A DNA stretch of 64,000 nt from Anaerolineales bacterium (GTDB lineage Bacteria; Chloroflexota; Anaerolineae; Anaerolineales; Anaerolineaceae). Positions 240 through 22,659 of the stretch are shown in pieces (the stretch's first letter is position 1; each line of letters starts with the position of its first letter). The stretch spans positions 2,518 through 66,517 of the forward strand of contig JBBQNI010000011.1 in assembly GCA_038329785.1 (NCBI GenBank), written 5' to 3'. The notes under the pieces were generated by a model. It saw only the letters and a program-made list of their open reading frames with translations, had not been told where the DNA came from and ran no database searches. The position numbers and the translations under genes are program-made.

Positions 240-409
240 AATTTTCCGGGTTTGCGGGCTTATTCTCGGTTCCCTTTTGGCAAGCTTCTTCAATAACCCT
301 CTGATCTTGTAAATACTCACGCTAGTATAGCATTGAATGGACAGCATCACGATAATTCTGCACTTTCATGCTACAATTTTTCTACTACTTAAATCAGGAA
401 GGAAATCAA

Positions 410-925
410 ATGACCTCTAAACAATGGGCAAGCGCGCCACCAATGAAGATCGACCCTAAAAAGAAGTACTCTGCTACCTTGAAAACCGACAAGGGTGATA
501 TCGTCGTCAATTTATTTGCGGATGAAGCTCCAATAACTGTAAATAATTTCATCTTTTTAGCCCGTGAAGGCTATTACGATGACACTATTTTTCATCGCGT
601 GATCAACGATTTCATGGTACAGGGCGGAGACCCAACTGGCACTGGTATGGGCGGTCCCGGCTATAAATTTTCAGACGAATTCCATCCCAGTCTGAAACAC
701 GACAAGCCAGGCATACTTTCAATGGCAAACGCCGGCCCGGGAACCAATGGTTCTCAGTTCTTTATCACCCATGTGCCAACACCATGGCTTGACCGAAAAC
801 ACTCAATATTTGGAGAAATTAGCGAGGGTCTGGATGTCTTATTCTCCATCCCGGCCAGAGACCCCAATTCGCGTAACGCAGCGGCAGTTCAATTGAAGTC
901 AATCGAAATCAGCGAAGGCGATTAA
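410..925 (+). CDS. ppiB: Peptidyl-prolyl cis-trans isomerase, cyclophilin type
   Basis: Cyclophilin blocks [35 protein letters not shown] and HSIFGEI. No signal peptide. I moved the start from track position 368 to ATG 410, which follows a GGAAGGAAA purine run. Confidence 0.92.
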
Positions 926-1008: not shown

Positions 1009-1059
1009 CGAATAATCTAGAAGGGAGCGGCGACTAACCGCTCCCTTCTAGATTATTCG
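1009..1059. repeat. Perfect 22-bp inverted repeat with a 7-nt loop (long hairpin)
   Basis: CGAATAATCTAGAAGGGAGCGG (1009-1030), loop CGACTAA, CCGCTCCCTTCTAGATTATTCG (1038-1059); checked base by base. It lies 83 nt after the ppiB stop (first base at +84) and is not followed by a T-run. Confidence 0.9.
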
Positions 1060-5533: not shown

Positions 5534-6967
5534 CAGCATGGTATCGTCCGCAACCCAATCCGTGTGGAAACTGCCAACCCGATCGAGACGGCGATATGTA
5601 TGGGCACCAAAATAATCACGCTGAGCTTGTGTAAGGTTGGCAGGCAATCGCTCGCTGCGATAGGCATCGAAATAAGCCAAAGCTGAAGATAATGCCAAAA
5701 CCGGAATGCCGTGATCAATCGCTAATTTCACGACCTTACGCCAATTCGCTTGCGAGGATTCAATAGTTTTGGTGAAGGCAGGGTCAAGCATCAGGTTAGC
5801 AAGCTGAGGATTAGCCTGATAAGACGACATGATGTCATTTAGCAAGCGTGCGCGTATAATACAACCTGCCCGCCAAATTTTGGCAATCTGCGCTATTTTT
5901 AGATCGTATTGGTATTCACGGGAAGCAATCTGCAGCATATCCAATCCCTGGGCGTATGCTGCAATTTTACTGGCGAGTAAGGCGTCATGTGCGGCCTGAA
6001 CCAGCGCCTCTAGATCGGCTTCGGGAAGGTTTAGACCCGGTCCATGCAGAATTTTACTGGCTGTAATCCGCTCGGTTTTTAATCCTGAGATAATACGGCT
6101 TTCAACAGATGCATTGATGGTGGGAATGGGTGCACCAATATCCAGGCCATTCTGGCTTGTCCACTTTCCCGTTCCTTTTTGCTGGGCTTCATCTAGAATC
6201 AAATCAAGCATGTCCATTCCGGTGAGCACATCCTTTTGTTGAAATATTCGTGCGGTAATTTCAACCAGATAGCTTTGTAATGGACCCTGATTCCATTCAT
6301 TGAATATTTCCGCCAACTTAGAATTGTCCAGACCCAACCCGCGATGAAGAAAATCATAGATCTCTGCGATTAACTGCATATCAGCATATTCAATCCCATT
6401 ATGAACCATTTTGACGTAATGCCCGGCCCCACGCGGTCCAATATGGGTGACACAGGGCGATCCATCGGGTGCTTTCGCAGCAATGGCTTCGAGAATCGGT
6501 TGGAGTGCCAGCCAGGCTTCCTGGGATCCCCCGGGCATCAAGCTCGGACCCCATAAAGCCCCCTCTTCACCTCCGGAAATGCCCATCCCAACAAAATTAA
6601 GACCTTCTGCAGCCAGTTCAATACTTCTTCTTTCGGTATCCTGGAAATATGAATTGCCACCATCGATCAGAATATCGCCGGCATCCATCAGATCTTTTAA
6701 TCCGGCAATAGCCAGGTCAACAGGGTTGCCGGCCGGGACCATTAAAAGAATTCGACGAGGCTTCTCCAGCACTGCCATCAGTTCAATTGGCGAGTCAACC
6801 TTGAAAATAGCCTTATCAACGGCGCTTTTGTTTAGAAAATGTTCTACCTTGGCGGTATCCAGATCGTATCCAGCCACAGCGAATCCATTTCGTTCCATGT
6901 TGAGGGCTAAACTTTGTCCCATTACCCCTAAACCAACAATACCAATCTGTGCTTTTTTCATCATCAA
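5525..6967 (-). CDS. gnd: 6-phosphogluconate dehydrogenase, decarboxylating
   Basis: N-terminal Rossmann motif IGIVGLGVMGQSLALNMERNGF. Family-typical length of 480 aa. Conserved blocks GGNSYFQDT, GISGGEEGA, HNGIEYADMQLI and TGKWT. Confidence 0.95.
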   Translation of the reverse strand: MMMKKAQIGIVGLGVMGQSLALNMERNGFAVAGYDLDTAKVEHFLNKSAVDKAIFKVDSPIELMAVLEKPRRILLMVPAGNPVDLAIAGLKDLMDAGDILIDGGNSYFQDTERRSIELAAEGLNFVGMGISGGEEGALWGPSLMPGGSQEAWLALQPILEAIAAKAPDGSPCVTHIGPRGAGHYVKMVHNGIEYADMQLIAEIYDFLHRGLGLDNSKLAEIFNEWNQGPLQSYLVEITARIFQQKDVLTGMDMLDLILDEAQQKGTGKWTSQNGLDIGAPIPTINASVESRIISGLKTERITASKILHGPGLNLPEADLEALVQAAHDALLASKIAAYAQGLDMLQIASREYQYDLKIAQIAKIWRAGCIIRARLLNDIMSSYQANPQLANLMLDPAFTKTIESSQANWRKVVKLAIDHGIPVLALSSALAYFDAYRSERLPANLTQAQRDYFGAHTYRRLDRVGSFHTDWVADDTMLEK

Positions 6968-10217: not shown

Positions 10218-12551
10218 CTATTTATTTTTACCGAATTTCACTTGCTGTAATACTTGACGGTATTCATCTGCATTGGGTGGTTCCAATGCGATAATGGCTT
10301 CGAGCGTTTCAATCGCTCCCCAGGTATCACCCTGATCAAGCAGCTTATCGGCCAATTGGTCCATTTGCTCGATCGCACGATTGGTTTGACCAGCGCGCAG
10401 ATATACTTCAGCCAAACGTCTGCGAATCTCGCCCTGGTTTGGACGTTCTTTCAACAATTCTTGCAGGAAGGCGATGGCATCCTTTATTTTTTGACGGTCT
10501 TCCAGTACTGAAAGGTAATCATCCACTTCTTTGAGCGCAACGGCATCCTGGGATAGGCGGAAATTGATATCAATTAATTGCATTCGAGAGGATTTTTCTT
10601 CAGGCTGGAGGGAGCGTAATTGTTCAAATATGCGTAATGCCTGGCGCCAATCCAGCCGTTGCATATCAATATCGGCTACCTTGGTGAGAATCTGCACTGC
10701 CCATTTGCGATTTGTGCGTGATTGCTGTGCCAGACGCAGGGAGGATAAATAGGCCTGGCGAGCCTTATCCAACTCTGCCAAACGATAATAAATGTCTCCC
10801 ATTTCCAGATACTCGTAGATCGCCTCATCAATGCGGCCGTGACTGGAAAGCAATTCAATCAAACTGTTACGAATACCCAGCTCCATCGGCACCATTTCCG
10901 TAACCCGTTTATAGACCCGGATAGCCTGATCGACTTCCCCGCGGACTTCATACAACTCAGCCACCAGGGTGAACTTGGCGACCGCTTTTTGAATATGTCC
11001 CTCGGCAACTAACAGGTCGCCCATTTGCATGTGCAAGGGTAAATAGGTAGGTGCGTAATGCAAGGCGCGGAATGCTTCCTCCATCGCCGAGCGGGTTTTT
11101 CCACGTTTGGTTAAATCACGTACATTCACCAATGATTCGATCACCTGGCTTGAACTTGACTGCAGTAACATCTCCATCAGAGGCATCGGCGGGTTGTCAT
11201 CTTTGGCAGGAGGCAACTGCTCGCGCGCTTTATGCAGGTATTCCCGCCAATCGAAGCGCATCAACTGCGTACGGACACTCTGGCAAATGGATTTCAGGGT
11301 CTCATCGTTGCGTTCATGGCGTTGTGCTTCCAAACTTGGTTCGTAAAGCTGACTCAATTCTTCAGCCTGATCCTCCGACACGGTTTGAATATCTGCCAGG
11401 CGAAATGCCTGCAAATAAGCCACAGCTGCATTGCGCAAATTGCCCTGGCGTTCATGAATTTTTCCAATCAAGAGATAAGTGGCCAGCGCATACTCTTTGC
11501 GCCGTAATGCTGTTTGCAGATATCGTAATGATCGCTCCGGGCTTTCTTCATTCAGAAGCATACCCAGGTTGAAATACACGGCTGATTTCTCAAGACCGAT
11601 TTCCAGTACCCGTGTAAATTCTTCCGCTGCCCGTTTTTCATTGCCCTGGGTTTGCAAGTCGATGGCATGCCCCAGATGCAAAAGAATACGGGTTCTTTCA
11701 GCTTGCTCGAGTGAAAGACCGCCGGTACCGCGCGTTAAGGCGTTTACCGATCGCCGGTTTGCTTCAGACTTTTCACCCGGCTCATCCGATTGATCAAACA
11801 ACATCTTGGCAAGTTCTTCAAGGGCCATCTGGCGCGCTTCGGCTACCGGATCCATCTTGCTTTCAGCAAATTGATCATCGCCTTCTTCCAATTGCTGGAT
11901 GGTTGCCAAACGGGCTGTCCTTAAGCTGCTGTTCTTGGATCTACCCGGTTTGGGTAAGGTTTGATTTGATTTTAATAACTTAATCGCATTTTGCACTTCG
12001 GTATTATCCGGTGCAATCTGCAAGCAATAGCGGACTGCCTGGATCGCCTTGGCAGCATCACCATCAACTTGCATCAGCGCAGCAGCTGCAAGATATTCAT
12101 AGGCAGCTTCTTGTTTGCGCCCCATTTTGTCAAAAATCATCGCTAAACGTGTACGTGCGTTTAAATTTTCTGGATCCATTGCAATAACATGAGACCAACT
12201 CTCAATTGATTTATCCACATCACGGGCTTTTAATTGCAATTCAGCAGCTTGCATCCCGGTTTTTATAGCTTCACGAATTCTTCCCATGTTTTCGTAGATC
12301 TTGGTCATCTTTTCGTATGGCACCGGATCGTTGGGAGAAATTGAGCTGGCCTTTTGGTATTGTGAAAGGGCACCTTCGTAATCTTGCATTTCCAGGTAAG
12401 ATAACCCCAGACTGATCAGCGCCATCGGATCGCTTGGAAATTCCGCCAATGCCAGTTGGTAGAAATTGGCTGCTTCAGACCATTTTTGATCCCAAGCAGC
12501 AGAATGCCCCTGGTTCATGGCGGCATGGAATGCTTGTTGATCTCCACTCAT
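10218..12551 (-). CDS. TPR repeat protein (777 aa)
   Basis: Repeated 34-aa A/Y/L-patterned units along the whole length (for example AANFYQLALAEFPSDPMALISLGLSY, ALSQYQKASSISPNDP). The start ATG overlaps the polA stop (ATGA at 12548-12551). Confidence 0.85.
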   Translation of the reverse strand: MSGDQQAFHAAMNQGHSAAWDQKWSEAANFYQLALAEFPSDPMALISLGLSYLEMQDYEGALSQYQKASSISPNDPVPYEKMTKIYENMGRIREAIKTGMQAAELQLKARDVDKSIESWSHVIAMDPENLNARTRLAMIFDKMGRKQEAAYEYLAAAALMQVDGDAAKAIQAVRYCLQIAPDNTEVQNAIKLLKSNQTLPKPGRSKNSSLRTARLATIQQLEEGDDQFAESKMDPVAEARQMALEELAKMLFDQSDEPGEKSEANRRSVNALTRGTGGLSLEQAERTRILLHLGHAIDLQTQGNEKRAAEEFTRVLEIGLEKSAVYFNLGMLLNEESPERSLRYLQTALRRKEYALATYLLIGKIHERQGNLRNAAVAYLQAFRLADIQTVSEDQAEELSQLYEPSLEAQRHERNDETLKSICQSVRTQLMRFDWREYLHKAREQLPPAKDDNPPMPLMEMLLQSSSSQVIESLVNVRDLTKRGKTRSAMEEAFRALHYAPTYLPLHMQMGDLLVAEGHIQKAVAKFTLVAELYEVRGEVDQAIRVYKRVTEMVPMELGIRNSLIELLSSHGRIDEAIYEYLEMGDIYYRLAELDKARQAYLSSLRLAQQSRTNRKWAVQILTKVADIDMQRLDWRQALRIFEQLRSLQPEEKSSRMQLIDINFRLSQDAVALKEVDDYLSVLEDRQKIKDAIAFLQELLKERPNQGEIRRRLAEVYLRAGQTNRAIEQMDQLADKLLDQGDTWGAIETLEAIIALEPPNADEYRQVLQQVKFGKNK

Positions 12552-15349
12552 AAGGTTTCATCCTGCTTGTCAAAAACCATTGGTTTCATGTTACCCCAAT
12601 TTTCTCCGGATTTTGCTTCGGTGGAAAGCGGGATGGAAAGTTTATAAGCATTTTCCATCACATCGCGTACCACCTCTGCGGTGTGGGTCAATTCTTCTCG
12701 CGGGCATTCAAGTAATAACTCGTCATGCACCTGTAGCAGTAATTTTGCTCTCAGTTTCAATTTTTGTAAAGTATCTGGAAGGCCAATCATTGCTATCTTT
12801 AGTATATCAGCAGCCGTGCCTTGAATGGGTGCATTTATGGCTTCTCTTTCCTCCCGATTGCGCACATTCTGATTAGCAGCTGAAGAAAGATTGGGAAAAT
12901 AGCGTCTTCTCCCCAATAAAGTCTCCACAAAACCCTGCTGCATCGCAAGTTGGCGTAAATCATCCAGATATTTCTTAACACCGGGGAATTGAGTGAAATA
13001 TGCTTTGACAAAATTTTCCGATTCTGCCAGAGTCAATCCTGTTGAACGGCTCAACCCAAAAGGACTCATGCCATAAATTAATCCGAAATTGATTGCCTTG
13101 GCGTGCCTGCGCTGCTGGCCTGTCACTTTATCGAGCGGTATGCCGTACACCGCCGCCGCAGTGGTTGTATGGATATCCTGTCCCGCACGGAAAGCGTTCA
13201 ACATTGCCTCGTCACCAGACATATGAGCAACAACGCGCAATTCAATCTGTGAATAATCCACCGCGAGCAATACCATGCCGGGGGATGCAATAAAGGCGCA
13301 CCGTACCTTGCGCCCCAGATCGGTGCGGGTGGGAATATTCTGTAAATTGGGGTTAATGGAGGCAAGGCGACCCGTCACTGAACCAGTCTGACTGAAAGAA
13401 GTGTGCACTCGGCCAGTGCGTGGATTGATCTGATTGGGTAACGCTGAAACATAGGTAGATTGCAATTTAGCCAGCTCGCGGTGCTCCAGAATGAGATCAA
13501 CCACCTCATGTGATCCCTGCATTTGTTCCAGCACAGCAAAATTGGTGGAGTAATGACCACTGGCAGTTTTCTTTTTACTGGGTGATTGAAGCCCAAGTGT
13601 TTCAAACAAGGCTACAGAAAGCTGCTGGGTAGAATTGAGATTAAAATGATAGCCAATGATAGCATGCACCTTGCTCTCAATTTCATTCAAGCGTTGGGCA
13701 AGTTCCTCATTCATCTGTTGCAAGAAATCTTTATCAAGCAGAATCCCGTTTATTTCCATCTGTTCCAGAACCGGAATCAGAGGCATTTCGATATCTCTAA
13801 AAACATTTTCAGCGTTGTTCCTGGCCATCGATGCGGCCAATAGCGGCATAAGCAATATGGGCACAACCGCATCGGCACCGGCATAAGGGGCAACGGCTTC
13901 CACAGCCACCTCTGCCATCGAAAGCTGGGTTTTACCGGAACCGATCAGGCTCTCGATACGCTGCATTTCAATACCCAGATATTTTTCAGCCATATCTTTC
14001 AGACCAAGATCGTACGAAGCCGGGTCTACCAGCCAACCTGCCAGCATAGTGTCAAAGGAGTATGGCTGCACCTTAATCCCATAAGCAGAAAGGACAAGGC
14101 AATCATATTTTAGATTGTGGCCGATTTTTGCAATTTCTGGGTTTTCCAGGGCGGGTTTGAGAGCCGTAATCACTTGTTCAAGGTCTAGCTGTTGATCACC
14201 AGTTTTGTGACCTACAGGAATATAATAACCTAGCCTGTCGTCAACAGCGACTGAAATTCCCACCAGGTCGGCCAACATAGGATCAGTATTGGTGGTTTCG
14301 GTGTCAAAGCTGATATATTTGGCGGATTCCAACTTCCCTACCAGCTCGGTTAATTCTGCCTTTGTATCCACAATCGCTGATTGATAATTAGCAGCAGGAG
14401 CGGATCCGATCGTAGTGACAGCTTCTCCAAACAGAGAAAGCTGTTGATTGGCTCCATTTTTGACGTTTCGATTGCCAAGATCACGTAAACGCCCAATCAA
14501 CGTCTTAAACTCGAGTTCGCTAAAGAGCAATTCCACTGCTTTGGTGTCCAGATGGCTGGTACTGGCCTGATCCAGGTCCAACAAAATATCAATATCTTGA
14601 TCGATGCGTGCCAATCTTTGACTCAAATAGGCGGATTCTTTTCCAGCAACCAACTTGCTCTGATAGCGGGAAGGGATCTCATCAATATGTGCATAGATTG
14701 CATCCAGCGTCTGATATTCTTCCAGTAATTTCAGGGCAGTTTTTTCACCAACACCTGGAACGCCGGGAATATTATCGGAGGAATCTCCCATCAACGCCTT
14801 TAAATCTACAATCTGTTCAGGTTTTACCCCCATTTTGGCAATAACATCCTCTTCATGATAATCACGAGCATCCGCCATCGATTTGCCGGGTAAGTTGACA
14901 ATGATGCGATCCGTGACCAGTTGAAGGAGATCGCGGTCACCGGTTATGATTTTAACGCCCAGGCCTTTAATGACCGCCTTTCTGGCGATTGACCCCAGAA
15001 CATCATCTGCCTCAGCCCCTTCTTTTTCAAGGCGGGGAATATCGAATGCATCAATTATTTCGCGGATTCGTTCGATCTGACCGCGTAACTCATCCGGCAT
15101 TTTGGCGCGCGTAGCTTTGTAATCCGGAAAAATTTCATTGCGGAACGTTTTGCCGGTGTCAAAAGCTACTGCGAGATATTCAGGGTTTTCTTTTTCCAAA
15201 AAGCGCAGCAGAATGTTCATAAATCCATAAATGGCTGCAGTGGGTTCTCCAGTGGAAGTCATAAGGCTATCCCCACGAACCGCAGACATTGCAAAATATG
15301 TTCGGTATGCCAGAGCATGTCCATCAATTAAATAAAGGGTTGGTGGCAT
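12548..15349 (-). CDS. polA: DNA polymerase I
   Basis: 5'-3' exonuclease N-terminus (LYLIDGHALAYRTYFA), a 3'-5' exo region (ISFDTETT) and family A polymerase motifs DYSQIELRV, RRHAKAINFGLIYG and QVHDELL. Confidence 0.97.
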   Translation of the reverse strand: MPPTLYLIDGHALAYRTYFAMSAVRGDSLMTSTGEPTAAIYGFMNILLRFLEKENPEYLAVAFDTGKTFRNEIFPDYKATRAKMPDELRGQIERIREIIDAFDIPRLEKEGAEADDVLGSIARKAVIKGLGVKIITGDRDLLQLVTDRIIVNLPGKSMADARDYHEEDVIAKMGVKPEQIVDLKALMGDSSDNIPGVPGVGEKTALKLLEEYQTLDAIYAHIDEIPSRYQSKLVAGKESAYLSQRLARIDQDIDILLDLDQASTSHLDTKAVELLFSELEFKTLIGRLRDLGNRNVKNGANQQLSLFGEAVTTIGSAPAANYQSAIVDTKAELTELVGKLESAKYISFDTETTNTDPMLADLVGISVAVDDRLGYYIPVGHKTGDQQLDLEQVITALKPALENPEIAKIGHNLKYDCLVLSAYGIKVQPYSFDTMLAGWLVDPASYDLGLKDMAEKYLGIEMQRIESLIGSGKTQLSMAEVAVEAVAPYAGADAVVPILLMPLLAASMARNNAENVFRDIEMPLIPVLEQMEINGILLDKDFLQQMNEELAQRLNEIESKVHAIIGYHFNLNSTQQLSVALFETLGLQSPSKKKTASGHYSTNFAVLEQMQGSHEVVDLILEHRELAKLQSTYVSALPNQINPRTGRVHTSFSQTGSVTGRLASINPNLQNIPTRTDLGRKVRCAFIASPGMVLLAVDYSQIELRVVAHMSGDEAMLNAFRAGQDIHTTTAAAVYGIPLDKVTGQQRRHAKAINFGLIYGMSPFGLSRSTGLTLAESENFVKAYFTQFPGVKKYLDDLRQLAMQQGFVETLLGRRRYFPNLSSAANQNVRNREEREAINAPIQGTAADILKIAMIGLPDTLQKLKLRAKLLLQVHDELLLECPREELTHTAEVVRDVMENAYKLSIPLSTEAKSGENWGNMKPMVFDKQDETL

Positions 15350-15386
15350 TTTTTCCTTCCTTCAAGCCAGCTTGGATTAGGTAATT

Positions 15387-17216
15387 CTAACCTGTTTTAC
15401 CTTGATCTTCCTCTGGGGATTTAAGAATGGTTGGTAGCAGGACACCCTGCGCCTGGCGGGTTCCATGGACATATTCTTTGACCATAGATTGCGAAGGTGG
15501 CAAATAACCACTCAATAACAGGTAACCGGGAGCCCAAAAATCGTTGGAAAGATGTCCCTTAAGAAAATCGGGTTTAAGCTCAAAAACTGCTTTTGATGTT
15601 TCTTTGCGCATAATTCGTATGATTTTTGCAGGAGCTACTTTCGGGGAAGCGAAGATCGTCCACTGGACATGCGTTGGCCGAATGGTTAAGCGATCCAGGC
15701 GCCAATCATAGGCAATACAGATCTGAGGAATCGACTTTGCCAGCAATTGAGAGATCATACCCACTAAAAATTGATCATGGAAGCGCGGGATGAGCAGACA
15801 GGTATAACAAAGGCTCGCCTGGCCGGGGGATTCGGGCTGCAATCGCACTTCAGCCTTTTGCGGGGCGTCAATATCCGCTGGAGAAAGAGGCGTTTCCGGC
15901 TCTACTTGTGTTTGACCTAATTCTGGTTCTACTTCAGTTGGTAAAATAGTACCATCCACCTCATCCTGTGCATCCCAGGGAAAAATGAGCCCGGCCAGCA
16001 GGTCAGCCGATGGTTCTTCATGCCCAGAAGCGGACAATAATTGATCAACCGTGTTGACCTGTTGACCGGATTCAGCCGGGAAATCGTCGTCTTCCCACTC
16101 AGACGGTTTCGCCGACCCGGCCTGCAAATCTTCACCCAGCTCCGTGTTTAGAATCTGAGTGGTTGAAGCGTTCACATCATGGACAACCTGCAAATCCGGG
16201 TTTTCTTTTAAGTGCTCGCTTTCCAGTTTTTCTAATGTGGGTATTGTCAAATCCTCATCCTCCTCTGCGCCTTCCCTTATCCATCCCGGCAAAAATTCGC
16301 TGCTTCTCGATTGTGTTGCCTTGAATTCACGGGGGGATTGGCTTTCGAGGTCTTCTCCCTTTTGCTTATTTTCGGCAGGCTCTACAGCAGCGCCTTTCAT
16401 TTCGCCGAAACTTTCTCCGTTTTGAACCCGGTTTTCCTGGGTATCCTCAGTATTTATGGTCGCTGGGATGCTTATATTTCGCGGGCTGAAACTCAACAGT
16501 CGCTGCTTGACCTGATTGATCTGTTGGCGGGCATCCCGCAATGGAATGCAGGCGGCAAATACCATAACCAGCAATTCGTTTTCCTCAATTGCCTTGAAAT
16601 AAATCAATAAAGGTTCTGAATTACCAGCGAGCTGTTTGTACTTAATAAAATCAGCATGGAACGGTTTTTCGGCCCGCTCTTCAAGGAAAGATACGATATC
16701 TTCTACAATTAATTCCTTGGAATCCCCCACCGTAGCCAGGAGCGAACCATTTAAAAAGTACGCAATCAGGTTCGCATCACTTTGCGAACGGGCATCAAGC
16801 AGCAGGCCAGGCAGGGCTTTTTCCAGTTGATCTTGTGATTTCTCTCCAAATTCAGCGTTTCTCAGGCTGTGCTCAATTTCTTCCAGAAAGTCGGGCAGAT
16901 AAATTGGTTTGTGTAACACTTTATTAATGTGAAGTCCATTCAATTCAGATCTTGTATCAAACGAGGTGGTTAGCAGCAGGATGGTTTTCAATCCTGGTTG
17001 AAATCTCTGAAAATTAGTCAAAACGTGCAATTGTTCGTCAACAGGTTGATCTATATCGAGAACAAGCGCATCAAAACTGGTCGAAGGCTCCAGATTGCGA
17101 ATTTCATCAATTGAATCTATTGCCGTGACCAGATATTTTCCGCTTTCCAGCAATGCAGAACGAATCAGTTCAGCAAATGCCGGCTGAGAACTTAGAACCA
17201 AAACCTTTTTTTCCAC
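15387..17216 (-). CDS. Receiver-like domain protein with an acidic linker and a C-terminal degenerate IS200-like (HUH/Y1) domain
   Basis: GTG start. The N-terminus is CheY-like (VLVLSS..., ALVLDID, LLLTT, HKP). There is a ~200-aa D/E-rich low-complexity linker. The C-terminal ~125 aa aligns with IS200 TnpA blocks (YTCLLIPRF, THVQWTI, IIRIMRKETSKAVF, DFWAPGYLL, VKEYVHGTRQ). Confidence 0.6.
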   Translation of the reverse strand: MEKKVLVLSSQPAFAELIRSALLESGKYLVTAIDSIDEIRNLEPSTSFDALVLDIDQPVDEQLHVLTNFQRFQPGLKTILLLTTSFDTRSELNGLHINKVLHKPIYLPDFLEEIEHSLRNAEFGEKSQDQLEKALPGLLLDARSQSDANLIAYFLNGSLLATVGDSKELIVEDIVSFLEERAEKPFHADFIKYKQLAGNSEPLLIYFKAIEENELLVMVFAACIPLRDARQQINQVKQRLLSFSPRNISIPATINTEDTQENRVQNGESFGEMKGAAVEPAENKQKGEDLESQSPREFKATQSRSSEFLPGWIREGAEEDEDLTIPTLEKLESEHLKENPDLQVVHDVNASTTQILNTELGEDLQAGSAKPSEWEDDDFPAESGQQVNTVDQLLSASGHEEPSADLLAGLIFPWDAQDEVDGTILPTEVEPELGQTQVEPETPLSPADIDAPQKAEVRLQPESPGQASLCYTCLLIPRFHDQFLVGMISQLLAKSIPQICIAYDWRLDRLTIRPTHVQWTIFASPKVAPAKIIRIMRKETSKAVFELKPDFLKGHLSNDFWAPGYLLLSGYLPPSQSMVKEYVHGTRQAQGVLLPTILKSPEEDQGKTG

Positions 17217-17330
17217 ATAAAAAGTTTAGCACTTACATTCTTGAGAATCAAGGCAATCTTGTGTCGACTTGTCTGTAAAGGAACTTGTGAGATAATAAAA
17301 ATACGGCACAAACATCCAAGAGGTTAAATT

Positions 17331-21141: not shown

Positions 21142-22659
21142 ATGATCCTTGGCATCTACGCCTATACGAAAAGATCTTCGACAGTGGCCCGCGTGTTTAC
21201 CCTTTTAATGTTCTCCACCACGCTCTGGACATTATTTTACTTACTGGGTTATTCCAGTCAAACCTTGAACGGAAAAATTTTCTGGTTACGAGTAAAATAC
21301 ATTCCCAGCACAATCATCCCCCTGGTCTGGTTTTATTTTTCCCTGGAATTCACCAAAAGCACCCGCTGGGTACGCAATCGCTGGGTGCAAAATGGTTTGA
21401 TTGCTTATCTGATCCTAACCTGGCTGGTGGTCTTCAGCAGCAATCTGCATGGCATGATGTGGCAGGAGGTATGGATTGCGCCTGGCCAACCGGAAGAAGT
21501 AGTAATTCACGGATTCTATTTCTGGATTTACCTGGCAGTCACTTATCTGGCATTGCTGATGAGTTTTGTCGCCTATACACGCTTTTTTTCAAAGGCTGCC
21601 TCTATTTATAAAATGCAGGCATTAACCATGGCGATCGCCAGTATCTTCCCGCTGCTGGCCTCTATTTTGTTCTTGTTTTTCAACCTTGATCTCATCCCCC
21701 TGGTTGACGACACCATTTTTTTTATGCTTTTCTCTGAATTATTTTTTGCCTGGTCACTTTTTGGCTACCGCTCTTTTGAGTTAATTCCATTTGCAAATGA
21801 AATTATCGTAAAGGATATTCCGATCGGAATCCTGGTTTTTGACAGAAATAACAAAATTGTTGAAATCAACCCGACTGCCCAAAAACTGTTAAGAATCTCC
21901 AATGATTATGCGGTAGGAAAATCTGCTAATATGGTATTTAACGATAAAGACGATATTTTCGTTATGAATGACATCGAACGTGATGTCGAAACCGAAATCG
22001 AGAACAACGATTCCGGGGAAGTGAAATATCTTAGCTTGCACCAATCGCCCATTTTTAATAAAGGACAGGAATTCCTCGGGCGAATTATGCTCATCACAGA
22101 TATCACCGAGCGCAAAAAACAAGAAATTATGTTAAGAAATTTTGCCACTTACGACGAGATGACCAAAGTTTTTAATCGTCGCCATTTTTTTGTTCTGGCA
22201 GAGAAAGAATTGCTGCGGGCTATCCGTTACGGTCGCTCAATCACAATCATCATCTTTGACATTGACAATTTCAAGCAATTCAACGATGTTTTCGGTCATT
22301 CGCTCGGTGATGCTGTTATAACTCATGTAGCCGGAACGGTATTAAAAGCATTGCGCGATTCAGATATATTTGCGCGTTATGGTGGCGATGAATTCATCAT
22401 CCTGTTCCCGGAAATCAGCAAAGAATGTTCCGTTAAAGCCGTTAACCGCCTGAGGGATGTCATCAAGAATTCTGTCCTGCGTAAGGACGGAGAAGAATTT
22501 CCTGTAACCCTCAGTTATGGAATTGCTCATTGGGATGGCAGGCAGGAAAAAACCCTGGAACAGATCATCCACCATGCCGATATGGCTCTGTTAAAAGCAA
22601 AAAAACAGGGTCGCGACCGATATTGTTTCTGGCCAGAAGATGACATGCCGGTAGTCTGA
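21142..22659 (+). CDS. Diguanylate cyclase with an N-terminal 7TM sensor module and a PAS domain
   Basis: Multiple TM helices of the type seen in front of histidine kinases and GGDEF proteins, a PAS region (PIGILVFDRNNKIVEINPTAQKLL ... ITDITERKKQE), and a GGDEF domain with GGDEF and an RDSD I-site. The frame is open upstream to 21082 and encodes a further helix (WPLYLSIFIS), so the true start probably precedes the first ATG. Confidence 0.88.
   Translation: MILGIYAYTKRSSTVARVFTLLMFSTTLWTLFYLLGYSSQTLNGKIFWLRVKYIPSTIIPLVWFYFSLEFTKSTRWVRNRWVQNGLIAYLILTWLVVFSSNLHGMMWQEVWIAPGQPEEVVIHGFYFWIYLAVTYLALLMSFVAYTRFFSKAASIYKMQALTMAIASIFPLLASILFLFFNLDLIPLVDDTIFFMLFSELFFAWSLFGYRSFELIPFANEIIVKDIPIGILVFDRNNKIVEINPTAQKLLRISNDYAVGKSANMVFNDKDDIFVMNDIERDVETEIENNDSGEVKYLSLHQSPIFNKGQEFLGRIMLITDITERKKQEIMLRNFATYDEMTKVFNRRHFFVLAEKELLRAIRYGRSITIIIFDIDNFKQFNDVFGHSLGDAVITHVAGTVLKALRDSDIFARYGGDEFIILFPEISKECSVKAVNRLRDVIKNSVLRKDGEEFPVTLSYGIAHWDGRQEKTLEQIIHHADMALLKAKKQGRDRYCFWPEDDMPVV

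What the first reader, a model, noticed from the sequence alone, without database searches (positions are those of the whole stretch)
15387..17216. Receiver-like protein ending in a degenerate IS200-type HUH/Y1 transposase fold, directly upstream of polA
Seen in sequence: this is a 609-aa ORF with four parts. (i) A CheY-like N-terminus whose acceptor Asp (VLDID), Thr (LLLTT) and Lys (HKP) positions are recognisable, but whose N-terminal acidic pair is SS (VLVLSSQ). (ii) A ~110-aa middle domain. (iii) A ~200-aa very acidic low-complexity linker. (iv) A C-terminal ~125 aa that aligns block by block with IS200 TnpA as I remember it: YTCLLIPRF ~ YHIVFAPKYR, RPTHVQWTI ~ ADHIHMLLEI, IIRIMRKETSKAVF ~ FMGYLKGKSSLMLY, DFWAPGYLL ~ EFWCRGYYV, VKEYVHGTRQ ~ IQDYIKHQ. 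The HUH motif is degraded to H-V-Q while the Tyr position is kept. There are no IS ends and no tnpB, and it is a single copy. The gene ends 37 nt before (38 nt from stop to) the polA start on the same strand. Inference: this is a domesticated HUH fold used as a ssDNA- or hairpin-binding output of a (pseudo)receiver, possibly working with Pol I. I know of no described family with this architecture.
Basis: partly seen in the sequence, partly recalled or inferred. Interest (0 to 1): 0.72.

Follow-up and report, generated by a model that had tools for sequence, protein, structure and literature searches.

The report
Dead IS200 transposase domain beside polA
This is a real, conserved cellular gene of Anaerolineae-type Chloroflexi in which a catalytically dead IS200-type transposase domain is the C-terminal output of a receiver-like signalling protein sitting just upstream of the DNA polymerase I gene; databases mislabel it as a transposase.

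Summary
The 609-aa ORF lies on the minus strand at 15387-17216. It has four parts:
- a receiver (REC) fold that keeps Asp54, Thr83 and Lys103-Pro104 but has Ser-Ser in place of the metal-binding acidic pair;
- a 221-aa acidic linker (pI 4.05);
- a basic Y1_Tnp domain (Pfam E=5.4e-11; Foldseek to ISDra2/IS200/IS608 TnpA E~1e-10).

The gene is not an isolated oddity. At least 446 clusters (50% identity) share the architecture. Family-wide, HUH reads Y-[LMV]-Q (H-V-Q here), and the catalytic Tyr position is Y or F (76/49). The domain is therefore catalytically dead, yet it is the most constrained part of the protein (dN/dS 0.09).

In 62 of 63 metagenome loci polA follows on the same strand, and a 777-aa TPR gene follows polA in 34 of 35. 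There are no IS ends, no tnpB and no second copy.

In most of the family, but not in this window, one conserved covarying hairpin with a TATAAT loop lies between the gene and polA.

Most likely function: a non-catalytic hairpin/ssDNA-binding output tied to polA. That function is inferred, not shown.

The parts
15387..17216 (-). Whole ORF, 609 aa, GTG start (here called X)
   Evidence: The N-terminus MEKKVLVLSSQ is conserved in homologs.
16857..17216 (-). Receiver-like (REC) domain, aa 1-120. It keeps D54, T83 and K103-P104; the acidic pair is replaced by S9-S10.
   Evidence: Pfam Response_reg scores 22-25 bits, below the gathering score. PDB response regulators match at E~1e-4. The model has a (beta-alpha)5 fold, with Foldseek TMt about 0.75 to RR468 and Spo0F. 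In the family, D54 is kept in 65/65 and K103 in 64/65, and the acidic pair is never acidic.
17187..17192 (-). Codons S9-S10, at the positions of the Mg2+-binding acidic pair of receivers
   Evidence: Aligned to the DD of TrrA. Family-wide these positions are T/S followed by A/S.
17055..17057 (-). Codon D54, the phospho-acceptor position
   Evidence: Invariant in 65/65 sequences and aligned to the acceptor Asp.
16482..16856 (-). Long connecting helix plus an MglB-like Roadblock/LC7 domain, aa 121-245
   Evidence: The model shows helix 107-144, then two strands, a helix, three strands and a helix. The best Foldseek hits are Rag/Gtr proteins, which are a GTPase followed by a Roadblock domain, at E=4e-9. 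A family profile hits eight MglB structures at E=6e-5 to 3e-3, over the whole domain for the best six. There is no Pfam hit.
15822..16481 (-). Acidic, probably disordered linker, aa 246-465
   Evidence: 50 D+E against 14 K+R, pI 4.05. It is the fastest-evolving part, dN/dS 0.41. Its length varies from about 150 to 330 aa across the family.
15432..15821 (-). Catalytically degenerate IS200-type Y1_Tnp (HUH-fold) domain, aa 466-595, basic (pI 9.4)
   Evidence: Pfam E=5.4e-11. Profile against PDB sequences E=2.7e-14. Model pLDDT 88; Foldseek E=1.6e-10 to ISDra2 TnpA, and TMt 0.83 with rmsd 3.0 to 2fyx. dN/dS 0.09.
15663..15671 (-). H516-V517-Q518, the equivalent of the HUH motif
   Evidence: Aligned to the HVH of ISDra2 TnpA. 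In the family the first His is Y in 121/125 and the second His is Q in 120/125.
15471..15473 (-). Y582, the equivalent of the catalytic Tyr
   Evidence: Aligned to the Tyr in the ...QKYIES stretch of ISDra2 TnpA; PDB entry 2xo6 is titled the Y132F mutant, so this is presumably Y132. The position is Y in 76 and F in 49 of 125 relatives. The T586-R587-x-x-Q590-G591 motif that follows is invariant or nearly so.
15382..15396 (-). Conserved motif AACAGGTTAGAATTA, with a -10-like TAGAAT, overlapping the stop codon of X and 33 nt upstream of the polA ATG. Probable polA promoter element.
   Evidence: Conserved in 9 of 10 aligned relatives whether it falls in coding or intergenic sequence. It occurs once in the window as an exact match.
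15350..15386 (-). 37-nt spacer between X and polA with a GGAAGGA Shine-Dalgarno sequence; no terminator and no hairpin
12548..15349 (-). polA (DNA polymerase I, 933 aa), the conserved downstream neighbour
   Evidence: polA lies downstream on the same strand in 62/63 metagenome loci.
10218..12551 (-). 777-aa TPR protein that overlaps the polA stop by 4 nt; third member of the conserved trio
   Evidence: It follows polA in 34/35 loci.
17217..17330 (.). Divergent promoter region between X and the wecC-like gene. The stretch CTTGATTCTCAAGAATGTAAGTGCTAAACTTTTTATGTG is highly conserved. It probably holds the promoter of X, with a leaderless or near-leaderless GTG start.

Best explanation
X is a vertically inherited cellular gene of Anaerolineae-type Chloroflexota, not a mobile element. 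It encodes a signalling-type protein with four modules:
- a pseudo- or atypical receiver that keeps the acceptor Asp, Thr and Lys but cannot bind Mg2+ in the usual way;
- an MglB-like Roadblock domain that most likely dimerises the protein;
- a long acidic disordered linker;
- a basic IS200-type TnpA domain that has lost the HUH metal site and the need for the nucleophilic Tyr.

Shown here: the fold, the loss of the catalytic residues, strong purifying selection, and the fixed position next to polA.

Inferred: the dead TnpA domain keeps what TnpA does without catalysis, namely structure- and sequence-specific binding of single-stranded or hairpin DNA. It would serve as the output domain of the REC-Roadblock switch. 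The acidic linker could act as an intramolecular competitor for the basic domain or as a docking region.

Inferred target: polA. In most of the family a single conserved, covarying hairpin lies between X and polA. It has a TATAAT loop and a T-run, and it sits where an IS200 right-end hairpin would be. My preferred model is therefore that X binds this promoter/terminator hairpin and sets polA expression, or read-through from X into polA.

The window's own clade has lost the hairpin. It keeps only the shared CAG-N2-TA-N-AAT core, which overlaps the stop codon of X. For this particular gene, a direct partnership with Pol I and the TPR protein on DNA is about equally likely.
For: Fold and homology.

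Catalytic residues lost family-wide but replaced by conserved residues: Y-x-Q in place of HUH, Y or F at the Tyr position, and invariant R83, W107, R133 and Q136 in domain numbering.

The Lys/Arg and Ser of the TnpA 'KGxS' helix are retained. The family's 'ilRqqtSekif' aligns with 'ALKGASARRMF'.

The domain is basic, pI 8.7-10.1, and sits next to an acidic linker of pI 4.0-5.6.

Purifying selection is strongest on the Y1 domain: dN/dS 0.09, against 0.22-0.41 for the other parts.

Family size and architecture: 446 clusters at E<=1e-30, nearly all 500-800 aa with the match at the C-terminus. The N-terminal REC plus Roadblock profile matches about 70 loci over its full length.

Synteny: polA follows in 62/63 loci and the TPR gene follows polA in 34/35, at polA identities of 54-75%. 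The junction is as tight as 3 nt, or a 26-nt overlap, in some clades.

Hairpin: CRGAGTATAAT occurs exactly once per locus, always on the strand of X and just after its stop, in 60 of 92 loci. 93.5% of cells are paired and 37 cells carry compensatory double changes, which 0 of 500 shuffles reach. No Rfam family matches.

Roadblock domain.
Against: No DNA-binding data exist; binding is inferred from homology to TnpA only.

The window and its close relatives have no hairpin between X and polA. A hairpin-operator model therefore cannot be transferred to this gene as it stands.

The hairpin plus T-run could simply be the intrinsic terminator of X overlapping the -10 box of polA. That would explain its conservation without any protein binding.

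A dedicated transcription factor for polA is unusual (my own knowledge).

The receiver lacks the acidic pair and no histidine kinase gene is adjacent. What signal, if any, is sensed is unknown.

The conserved replacement residues (Y, Q, T, R) could form a new active site rather than a passive binding surface.
Confidence: 0.5

Rival explanations
1. X is an accessory factor of Pol I. X, Pol I and the TPR protein form a physical module. The dead TnpA domain binds hairpins or ssDNA on the lagging-strand template, which is where IS200/IS605 TnpA normally acts. It would recruit or position Pol I for gap filling or flap and hairpin processing. The TPR protein would dock on short motifs in the acidic linker.
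For: The trio X-polA-TPR is conserved across the family. In several clades the X-polA junction is 3-21 nt or overlapping, and polA and the TPR gene overlap by 4 nt in the window; both arrangements are typical of co-expressed partners. The window clade has no hairpin but keeps the gene under selection. The linker holds short conserved hydrophobic motifs in an acidic context, such as EFLPGWI and DLLAGL[IV]FPWD. E. coli REP hairpins, the substrates of RAYT-type Y1 proteins, are reported to bind Pol I (PMC6006769, citing Gilson 1990).
Against: No interaction data exist, and a multimer structure prediction could not be run. In most of the family a terminator-like hairpin and a promoter-like element separate X from polA, so co-expression is not obligatory. 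In four loci another gene is inserted between X and polA.
Confidence: 0.3
2. X is an ordinary or decaying IS200/IS605 transposase, or a RAYT, that happens to be fused to a receiver. This is what public annotation says.
For: The Pfam and PHROG transposase models are matched. Source names include 'IS200/IS605 family transposase', 'transposase' and 'RayT'.
Against: The HUH motif is absent family-wide and the Tyr position is replaceable by Phe. The score is below the NCBIfam IS200 equivalog cut-off, 48.3 against 55. The window has no IS ends, REP arrays, tnpB or second copy. The chromosomal position next to polA is fixed in 62/63 loci. dN/dS is 0.09 on the domain, which is incompatible with decay.
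Confidence: 0.03
3. The HUH site has been rebuilt into a different active site. The conserved Tyr (in place of the first His), Gln, Thr and two Arg residues could support metal-independent phosphoryl transfer or nucleic-acid cleavage of a new kind.
For: The replacement residues are themselves highly conserved: Y in 121/125, Q in 120/125, T132 in 122/125, and R83, R133 and Q136 invariant.
Against: In the window protein and its closest relatives the replacement Tyr is His, so it cannot be an essential nucleophile. No known enzyme family uses this constellation on an HUH fold (my own knowledge). Conserved polar residues are equally expected for a DNA-binding surface.
Confidence: 0.07
4. X is a dominant-negative inhibitor of IS200/IS605 transposition. 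A dead TnpA would poison active TnpA dimers or compete for IS-end hairpins at replication forks.
For: TnpA is an obligate dimer with active sites built in trans (PMC3597680 abstract). Inhibitors derived from transposases are known for other elements (my own knowledge).
Against: Hairpin recognition is specific to each IS, whereas X is ancient and vertically inherited. The window holds no IS200/IS605 copies. This model does not explain the polA and TPR linkage or the REC-Roadblock module.
Confidence: 0.03

Closest known systems
IS200/IS605 TnpA (Y1 HUH transposase, Pfam PF01797; structures of ISDra2, IS608 and Sulfolobus IS200 TnpA)
   Same: Same fold and detectable sequence homology. The FWxxGY motif and the basic and Ser positions of the KGxS helix are retained. 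In most of the family a hairpin lies next to the gene.
   Different: No HUH motif and no conserved catalytic Tyr. No IS ends, not mobile, single-copy, and at a fixed locus next to polA. The domain is the C-terminus of a 420-950 aa multidomain protein, whereas TnpA is about 140 aa and stands alone.
RAYT / TnpA-REP (domesticated Y1 transposases associated with REP hairpins)
   Same: A Y1-fold protein recruited by the host; single-copy and vertically inherited.
   Different: RAYTs keep HUH and Tyr and are flanked by REP arrays (PMC6006769). Here the catalytic residues are lost and there are no REP arrays. The Foldseek match to RAYT 4er8 (E~1e-4) is far weaker than to the IS200-type TnpAs (E~1e-10), so the domain derives from the IS200 class.
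Response regulators with atypical or pseudo-receiver domains
   Same: An N-terminal (beta-alpha)5 receiver followed by an output domain. The acceptor Asp, Thr/Ser and Lys-Pro are conserved.
   Different: The Mg2+-binding acidic pair is missing family-wide. The output is a transposase-derived fold, which my literature searches did not find described as a response-regulator output. No kinase gene is adjacent.
MglB / Roadblock-LC7 proteins and Rag/Gtr GTPases (switch domain plus Roadblock dimerisation domain)
   Same: The middle domain matches MglB by profile. The REC plus Roadblock pair superposes best on Rag/Gtr proteins.
   Different: The switch domain is a receiver, not a GTPase. No MglA-like GTPase gene lies nearby. 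No Pfam Robl_LC7 hit is found.

Membership tests
IS200/IS605 TnpA (Y1 HUH transposase) | Y1_Tnp fold and sequence homology | tested here: met
   Pfam 43.1 bits against a gathering score of 23. Profile against PDB sequences E=2.7e-14. Foldseek E=1.6e-10, probability 1.0.
IS200/IS605 TnpA (Y1 HUH transposase) | HUH metal-binding motif | tested here: not met
   H-V-Q in the window. In the family the first His is Y in 121/125 and the second His is Q in 120/125.
IS200/IS605 TnpA (Y1 HUH transposase) | Conserved catalytic Tyr on the C-terminal helix, with Gln four residues later | tested here: not met
   Tyr is present in the window (Y582), but the position is Y in 76 and F in 49 of 125 relatives. 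The residue four positions later is Thr, not Gln.
IS200/IS605 TnpA (Y1 HUH transposase) | Subterminal hairpin ends (left and right) that delimit a mobile unit, often with tnpB | tested here: not met
   The window has no flanking hairpins or repeats. The neighbours are polA and a wecC-like gene. In the wider family a single hairpin lies 3' of the gene, but at a fixed chromosomal site.
IS200/IS605 TnpA (Y1 HUH transposase) | Multi-copy, variable genomic location | tested here: not met
   One copy in the 64 kb. polA is the neighbour in 62/63 loci. Copy number per complete genome was not testable.
IS200/IS605 TnpA (Y1 HUH transposase) | NCBIfam equivalog NF033573 cut-off | tested here: not met
   48.3 bits against a cut-off of 55.
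RAYT / TnpA-REP | HUH and Tyr retained | tested here: not met
RAYT / TnpA-REP | Gene flanked by REP hairpin arrays (REPtron), with REPs repeated in the genome | tested here: not met
   The window has no repeated palindromes. The family hairpin occurs once per locus.
Response regulator receiver (REC) | (beta-alpha)5 flavodoxin-like fold | tested here: met
   Model secondary structure. Foldseek TMt 0.73-0.80 to RR468, Spo0F and MicA receiver domains.
Response regulator receiver (REC) | Pfam Response_reg gathering score | tested here: inconclusive
   The window protein scores 22.2-24.6 bits against 30.2. One family member reaches 35.3 bits.
Response regulator receiver (REC) | Phospho-acceptor Asp, conserved Thr/Ser and Lys | tested here: met
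   D54 in 65/65 and K103-P104 in 64/65 sequences; T83 in the window, S/T in most relatives.
Response regulator receiver (REC) | N-terminal acidic pair that binds Mg2+ | tested here: not met
   S9-S10 in the window; T/S followed by A/S across the family.
Response regulator receiver (REC) | Phosphorylation by a cognate histidine kinase | not testable with these tools
   No kinase gene is adjacent. This needs biochemistry.
Roadblock/LC7 (MglB-like) | Roadblock fold: a helix, two strands, a helix, three strands | tested here: met
   Model. The top Foldseek hits are Rag/Gtr proteins, which carry a C-terminal Roadblock domain.
Roadblock/LC7 (MglB-like) | Sequence-profile homology | tested here: met
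   The family profile hits eight MglB structures at E=6.2e-5 to 2.9e-3, over the whole domain for the best six. There is no Pfam Robl_LC7 hit for single sequences.

The most novel reading that the evidence does not exclude
A transposase DNA-hairpin-recognition module has been domesticated, without its chemistry, as the output domain of a receiver-Roadblock switch that controls or assists DNA polymerase I throughout the Anaerolineae. The hairpin next to the gene would be a fossil IS200 end that now serves as the polA promoter/terminator operator. This would be the first response-regulator-type protein with a dead HUH output, and the first dedicated, signal-linked control of a housekeeping Pol I.
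Probability: 0.3. Interest if true: 0.8.

Novelty: new variant of a known kind. Interest (0 to 1): 0.7.

Why it matters
Domesticated transposases are well known in eukaryotes. In bacteria, the Y1/HUH class is represented essentially by the RAYTs, which are still catalytic. Here a whole bacterial lineage keeps a catalytically dead IS200-type domain under strong selection. The domain is wired to a signalling module and locked next to polA.

If the domain binds hairpin or single-stranded DNA, the family offers three things:
- a natural, nuclease-free hairpin- or ssDNA-recognition module;
- a new class of response-regulator output;
- a handle on how Pol I is regulated or targeted in a major but poorly studied phylum.

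There is also a practical point. Hundreds of these genes are annotated as 'IS200/IS605 transposase' or 'RayT', which inflates mobile-element counts in Chloroflexota genomes and MAGs. The main published survey of the Y1 family explicitly set aside sequences without HUH or Tyr as non-functional (PMC6006769), so this family fell outside it.

Tried and rejected
1. X-PolA fusion. My ORF script reported a 1471-aa X-PolA fusion in L018. Reading the DNA showed a TAA stop at 6403-6405 and the polA ATG at 6409. The fusion was a script artefact and is rejected; the real gap is 3 nt.

2. Stand-alone RayT proteins. The roughly 200-aa 'RayT' hits looked like stand-alone relatives. Their contexts and open frames show that most are contig-truncated or frameshift-split C-termini of 420-720 aa genes. 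Only L012 looks truly stand-alone.

3. REP-like or IS-end repeats in the window: none.

4. Known RNA family for the hairpin: none in Rfam.

5. Anti-phage defence system: no PADLOC hit for X or the TPR protein. The polA hit to 'RTasPolA' is generic family-A polymerase homology.

6. Searches limited by method. The word-indexed search with the N-terminal profile found almost nothing, because that region evolves fast. The exhaustive HMM search and a local HMM run on the fetched loci were needed. The genome-contig scan returned only two loci because its patterns came from the narrow clade. The distribution across cultured Chloroflexota therefore remains unsurveyed.

7. Literature searches for this architecture returned nothing relevant.
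Full report
**Observation**

The ORF lies on the minus strand at 15387..17216. It is 609 aa with a GTG start. Its N-terminus, MEKKVLVLSSQ, is conserved in homologs, which supports that start.

polA follows on the same strand 37 nt after the stop (12548..15349). It carries all Pol I domains and scores 1098 bits against the NCBIfam equivalog, whose cut-off is 720. A 777-aa TPR gene overlaps the polA stop by 4 nt. Upstream and divergent are wecC-like, wecB and GT4 genes.

**Domain anatomy**

*Receiver (aa 1-120).*
- Pfam Response_reg scores 22-25 bits, below the gathering score of 30.2. A relative reaches 35.3 bits.
- PDB response regulators align over the whole domain. The alignment puts S9-S10 on the DD pair, D54 on the acceptor, T83 on the conserved Thr and K103 on the conserved Lys.
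- The model has a (beta-alpha)5 fold and superposes on RR468 and Spo0F with TMt about 0.75.
- Over 65 distinct family members D54 is invariant and K103-P104 are kept in 64 of 65. The acidic-pair positions are T/S followed by A/S, never acidic.
- It is therefore a receiver whose Mg2+ site is gone but whose acceptor pocket is conserved.

*Roadblock domain (aa 121-245).*
- A long helix is followed by two strands, a helix, three strands and a helix.
- The two-domain model's best PDB matches are Rag/Gtr GTPases, which are a switch domain plus a Roadblock domain (E=4e-9).
- A profile of this domain alone hits eight MglB structures, and nothing else significant, at E=6e-5 to 3e-3, over the full length for the best six.
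- It is an MglB-like Roadblock domain. Such domains typically dimerise (my own knowledge).

*Linker (aa 246-465).* It has 50 D+E against 14 K+R and a pI of 4.05. Its length varies across the family, and it is the fastest-evolving part.

*Y1_Tnp domain (aa 466-595).*
- Pfam Y1_Tnp matches at E=5.4e-11.
- The family profile hits IS200, ISDra2 and IS608 TnpA structures at E=2.7e-14 to 7e-5.
- The model (pLDDT 88) matches the same structures at Foldseek E of about 1e-10. The match to RAYT 4er8 is only about 1e-4.
- The domain is basic, pI 9.4.

**A large family with catalytic residues lost throughout**

A word-indexed search with the whole protein found only four relatives. A profile of the C-terminal domain found 440. 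An exhaustive HMM search of 1.84 billion cluster representatives found 446 at E<=1e-30, nearly all 500-800 aa with the match at the C-terminus.

Many short 'RayT' or 'IS200' database entries are truncated or frameshift-split pieces of such genes. Source names place the family in Anaerolineales, Longilinea and unclassified Chloroflexota.

In 125 aligned domains:
- the first HUH His is Y in 121 and H in 4, the window among the latter;
- the second His is Q in 120;
- the catalytic Tyr position is Y in 76 and F in 49;
- the residue corresponding to the metal-binding Gln, four positions after the Tyr, is Thr;
- the canonical structural FWxxGY motif and the basic and Ser positions of the 'KGxS' helix are kept;
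- R83, W107, A108, G110, R133 and Q136 (domain numbering) are invariant.

Between the window and its 76%-identical relative, dN/dS is 0.09 for the Y1 domain, 0.22 for REC, 0.27 for Roadblock, 0.41 for the linker and 0.057 for polA. The domain is conserved for something other than HUH chemistry.

**Context**

All close relatives are fully syntenic. That alone would be weak evidence, but 80 loci fetched from metagenomes solely by the C-terminal domain give the same picture:
- Of 63 loci with at least 600 nt downstream, 62 have polA next on the same strand. polA identity to the window is 54-75%.
- Of 35 loci with room, 34 have the TPR gene after polA.
- Outer neighbours differ, for example in L011.
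- The gap to polA ranges from a 26-nt overlap or 3 nt to about 390 nt.
- In four loci a metallophosphoesterase-like gene is inserted between X and polA.
- About 70 loci have the full REC plus Roadblock N-terminus, and about 10 lack REC.
- One locus, L012, has a 174-aa stand-alone domain next to an Mrr-like nuclease and a TPR gene, without polA.

The window contains no second copy, no tnpB, and no IS-type ends or REP-like repeats.

**cis-elements found along the way**

In the larger soil and sediment clade the X-polA spacer is strongly structured. It contains one conserved hairpin with stem GCGC[AG]GAG / CTC[CT]GCGC, a loop of TATAAT plus two to three bases, and then a T-run.

- The core CRGAGTATAAT occurs exactly once per locus, always on the strand of X and just after its stop, in 60 of 92 loci.
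- On 52 distinct sequences 93.5% of cells pair. One pair alternates A-U (29) and G-C (20). The 37 double-change cells exceed all 500 shuffles and all slid controls.
- No Rfam family matches.
- The element looks like an intrinsic terminator for X whose loop is a perfect -10 hexamer for polA. Several loci have TTGACA about 20 nt upstream.

The window's clade lacks the hairpin. It has a conserved AAAACAGG[TA]TA[GA]AATTA motif 33-50 nt upstream of the polA ATG. In the window this motif overlaps the stop codon of X; in relatives it is intergenic. Both clades share the core CAG-N2-TA-N-AAT, so polA probably has its own promoter at the end of X.

The upstream region of X is also highly conserved, with a -35/-10-like pair ending 6 nt before the GTG.

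**How it most likely works**

*Shown:* the fold, the loss of the catalytic residues, selection on the domain, a fixed single-copy position next to polA and the TPR gene, and a conserved hairpin beside the gene in most of the family.

*Inferred:*
- The dead TnpA domain retains hairpin or ssDNA recognition, the non-catalytic half of TnpA function.
- The Roadblock domain makes the protein dimeric, as TnpA is.
- The REC domain, probably independent of phosphorylation in this clade, and the acidic linker modulate access of the basic domain to nucleic acid.
- The target is tied to polA.

I give about 0.5 to this overall picture. My preferred version is control of polA expression at its promoter/terminator element. 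A TnpA-derived gene sitting next to a conserved DNA hairpin is unlikely to be coincidence. The arrangement also mirrors a tnpA gene and its right-end hairpin.

Because the window clade has no hairpin, the rival carries about 0.3. In that rival X is a physical accessory of Pol I, together with the TPR protein, on lagging-strand or hairpin DNA. Much less likely are a rebuilt active site (0.07), an anti-IS inhibitor (0.03) and an ordinary or decaying transposase (0.03).

**Comparison with what is known**

- At the level of fold and Pfam homology, the C-terminal domain belongs to the Y1_Tnp superfamily and derives from the IS200 class, not the RAYT class. It fails every functional criterion of a transposase: HUH, Tyr, ends, mobility and the NCBIfam equivalog cut-off.
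- It differs from RAYTs, the known domesticated Y1 proteins. RAYTs keep the catalytic residues and sit among REP arrays (PMC6006769).
- The same paper discarded sequences lacking HUH or Tyr as probably non-functional, so this family was not covered.
- Searches for a response regulator with an IS200-type output, or for this architecture in Anaerolineae, found nothing.

**Verdict**

The gene represents a large, undescribed and mis-annotated family. I class it as a new variant of known kinds (domesticated transposase domain; atypical response regulator), with interest 0.7. The function is still inference.

Noticed in passing
L011-L091 (60 loci), e.g. L024:2188-2240, L056:2276-2328, L041:6451-6503: A conserved, covarying hairpin (GCGC[AG]GAG - TATAATNN - CTC[CT]GCGC, then a T-run) occurs exactly once per locus, between the Y1-domain gene and polA. 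It looks like a terminator whose loop is a perfect -10 box. It is absent from the window clade and has no Rfam match.
   Followed up: partly
window 15382-15396 (minus strand): The motif AACAGGTTAGAATTA overlaps the stop codon of X. It is conserved in 9 of 10 aligned relatives whether coding or intergenic, and is probably the -10 region of polA's own promoter. It shares a CAG-N2-TA-N-AAT core with the hairpin clade.
   Followed up: partly
window 17217-17330: The divergent intergenic region is almost invariant across relatives whose X proteins are only 35-40% identical. It has a -35/-10-like pair ending 6 nt before the GTG of X, which suggests a leaderless start. On the other strand it has a TGAGATAAT-type extended -10 for the wecC-like gene.
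   Followed up: partly
window 10218-12551 (minus strand): Within the window clade the 777-aa TPR protein downstream of polA is more conserved (93-98% identity) than polA itself (78-95%). Its start overlaps the polA stop by 4 nt. Its function is unknown.
   Followed up: no
L023, L039, L053 (6506-7564), L087 (3078-4100): In a sub-clade a gene of about 340-350 aa is inserted between the hairpin and polA. By eye it carries metallophosphoesterase-like motifs (DLHGD, GDxxH, GNHE).
   Followed up: partly
L012:7001-7525; L064, L078, L015, L019, L035, L058, L092: Architectural variants exist. L012 has a 174-aa stand-alone dead-Y1 protein followed by an Mrr-like nuclease and a TPR gene, with no polA. 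Forms of about 425 aa lack REC and keep Roadblock, linker and Y1.
   Followed up: partly
L009, L010, L011: In three long-contig assemblies (samples ERZ25039483 and ERZ25039462) X and/or polA are split into several ORFs. I attribute this to frameshift errors, but did not test it. It creates spurious stand-alone 'transposase' entries of 170-200 aa in protein databases.
   Followed up: yes
window 1009-1059: A perfect 22-nt inverted repeat with a 7-nt loop (CGAATAATCTAGAAGGGAGCGG / CCGCTCCCTTCTAGATTATTCG) lies just downstream of the ORF 368..925.
   Followed up: no
L001:1-3995 and equivalents in L002, L003, L005: The neighbourhood in close relatives also holds two tandem serpin genes (not seen in L005) and a HisKA_7TM-PAS-GGDEF protein a few kb from X. 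I did not check whether the window ORF 21142..22659 is the GGDEF homolog.
   Followed up: no
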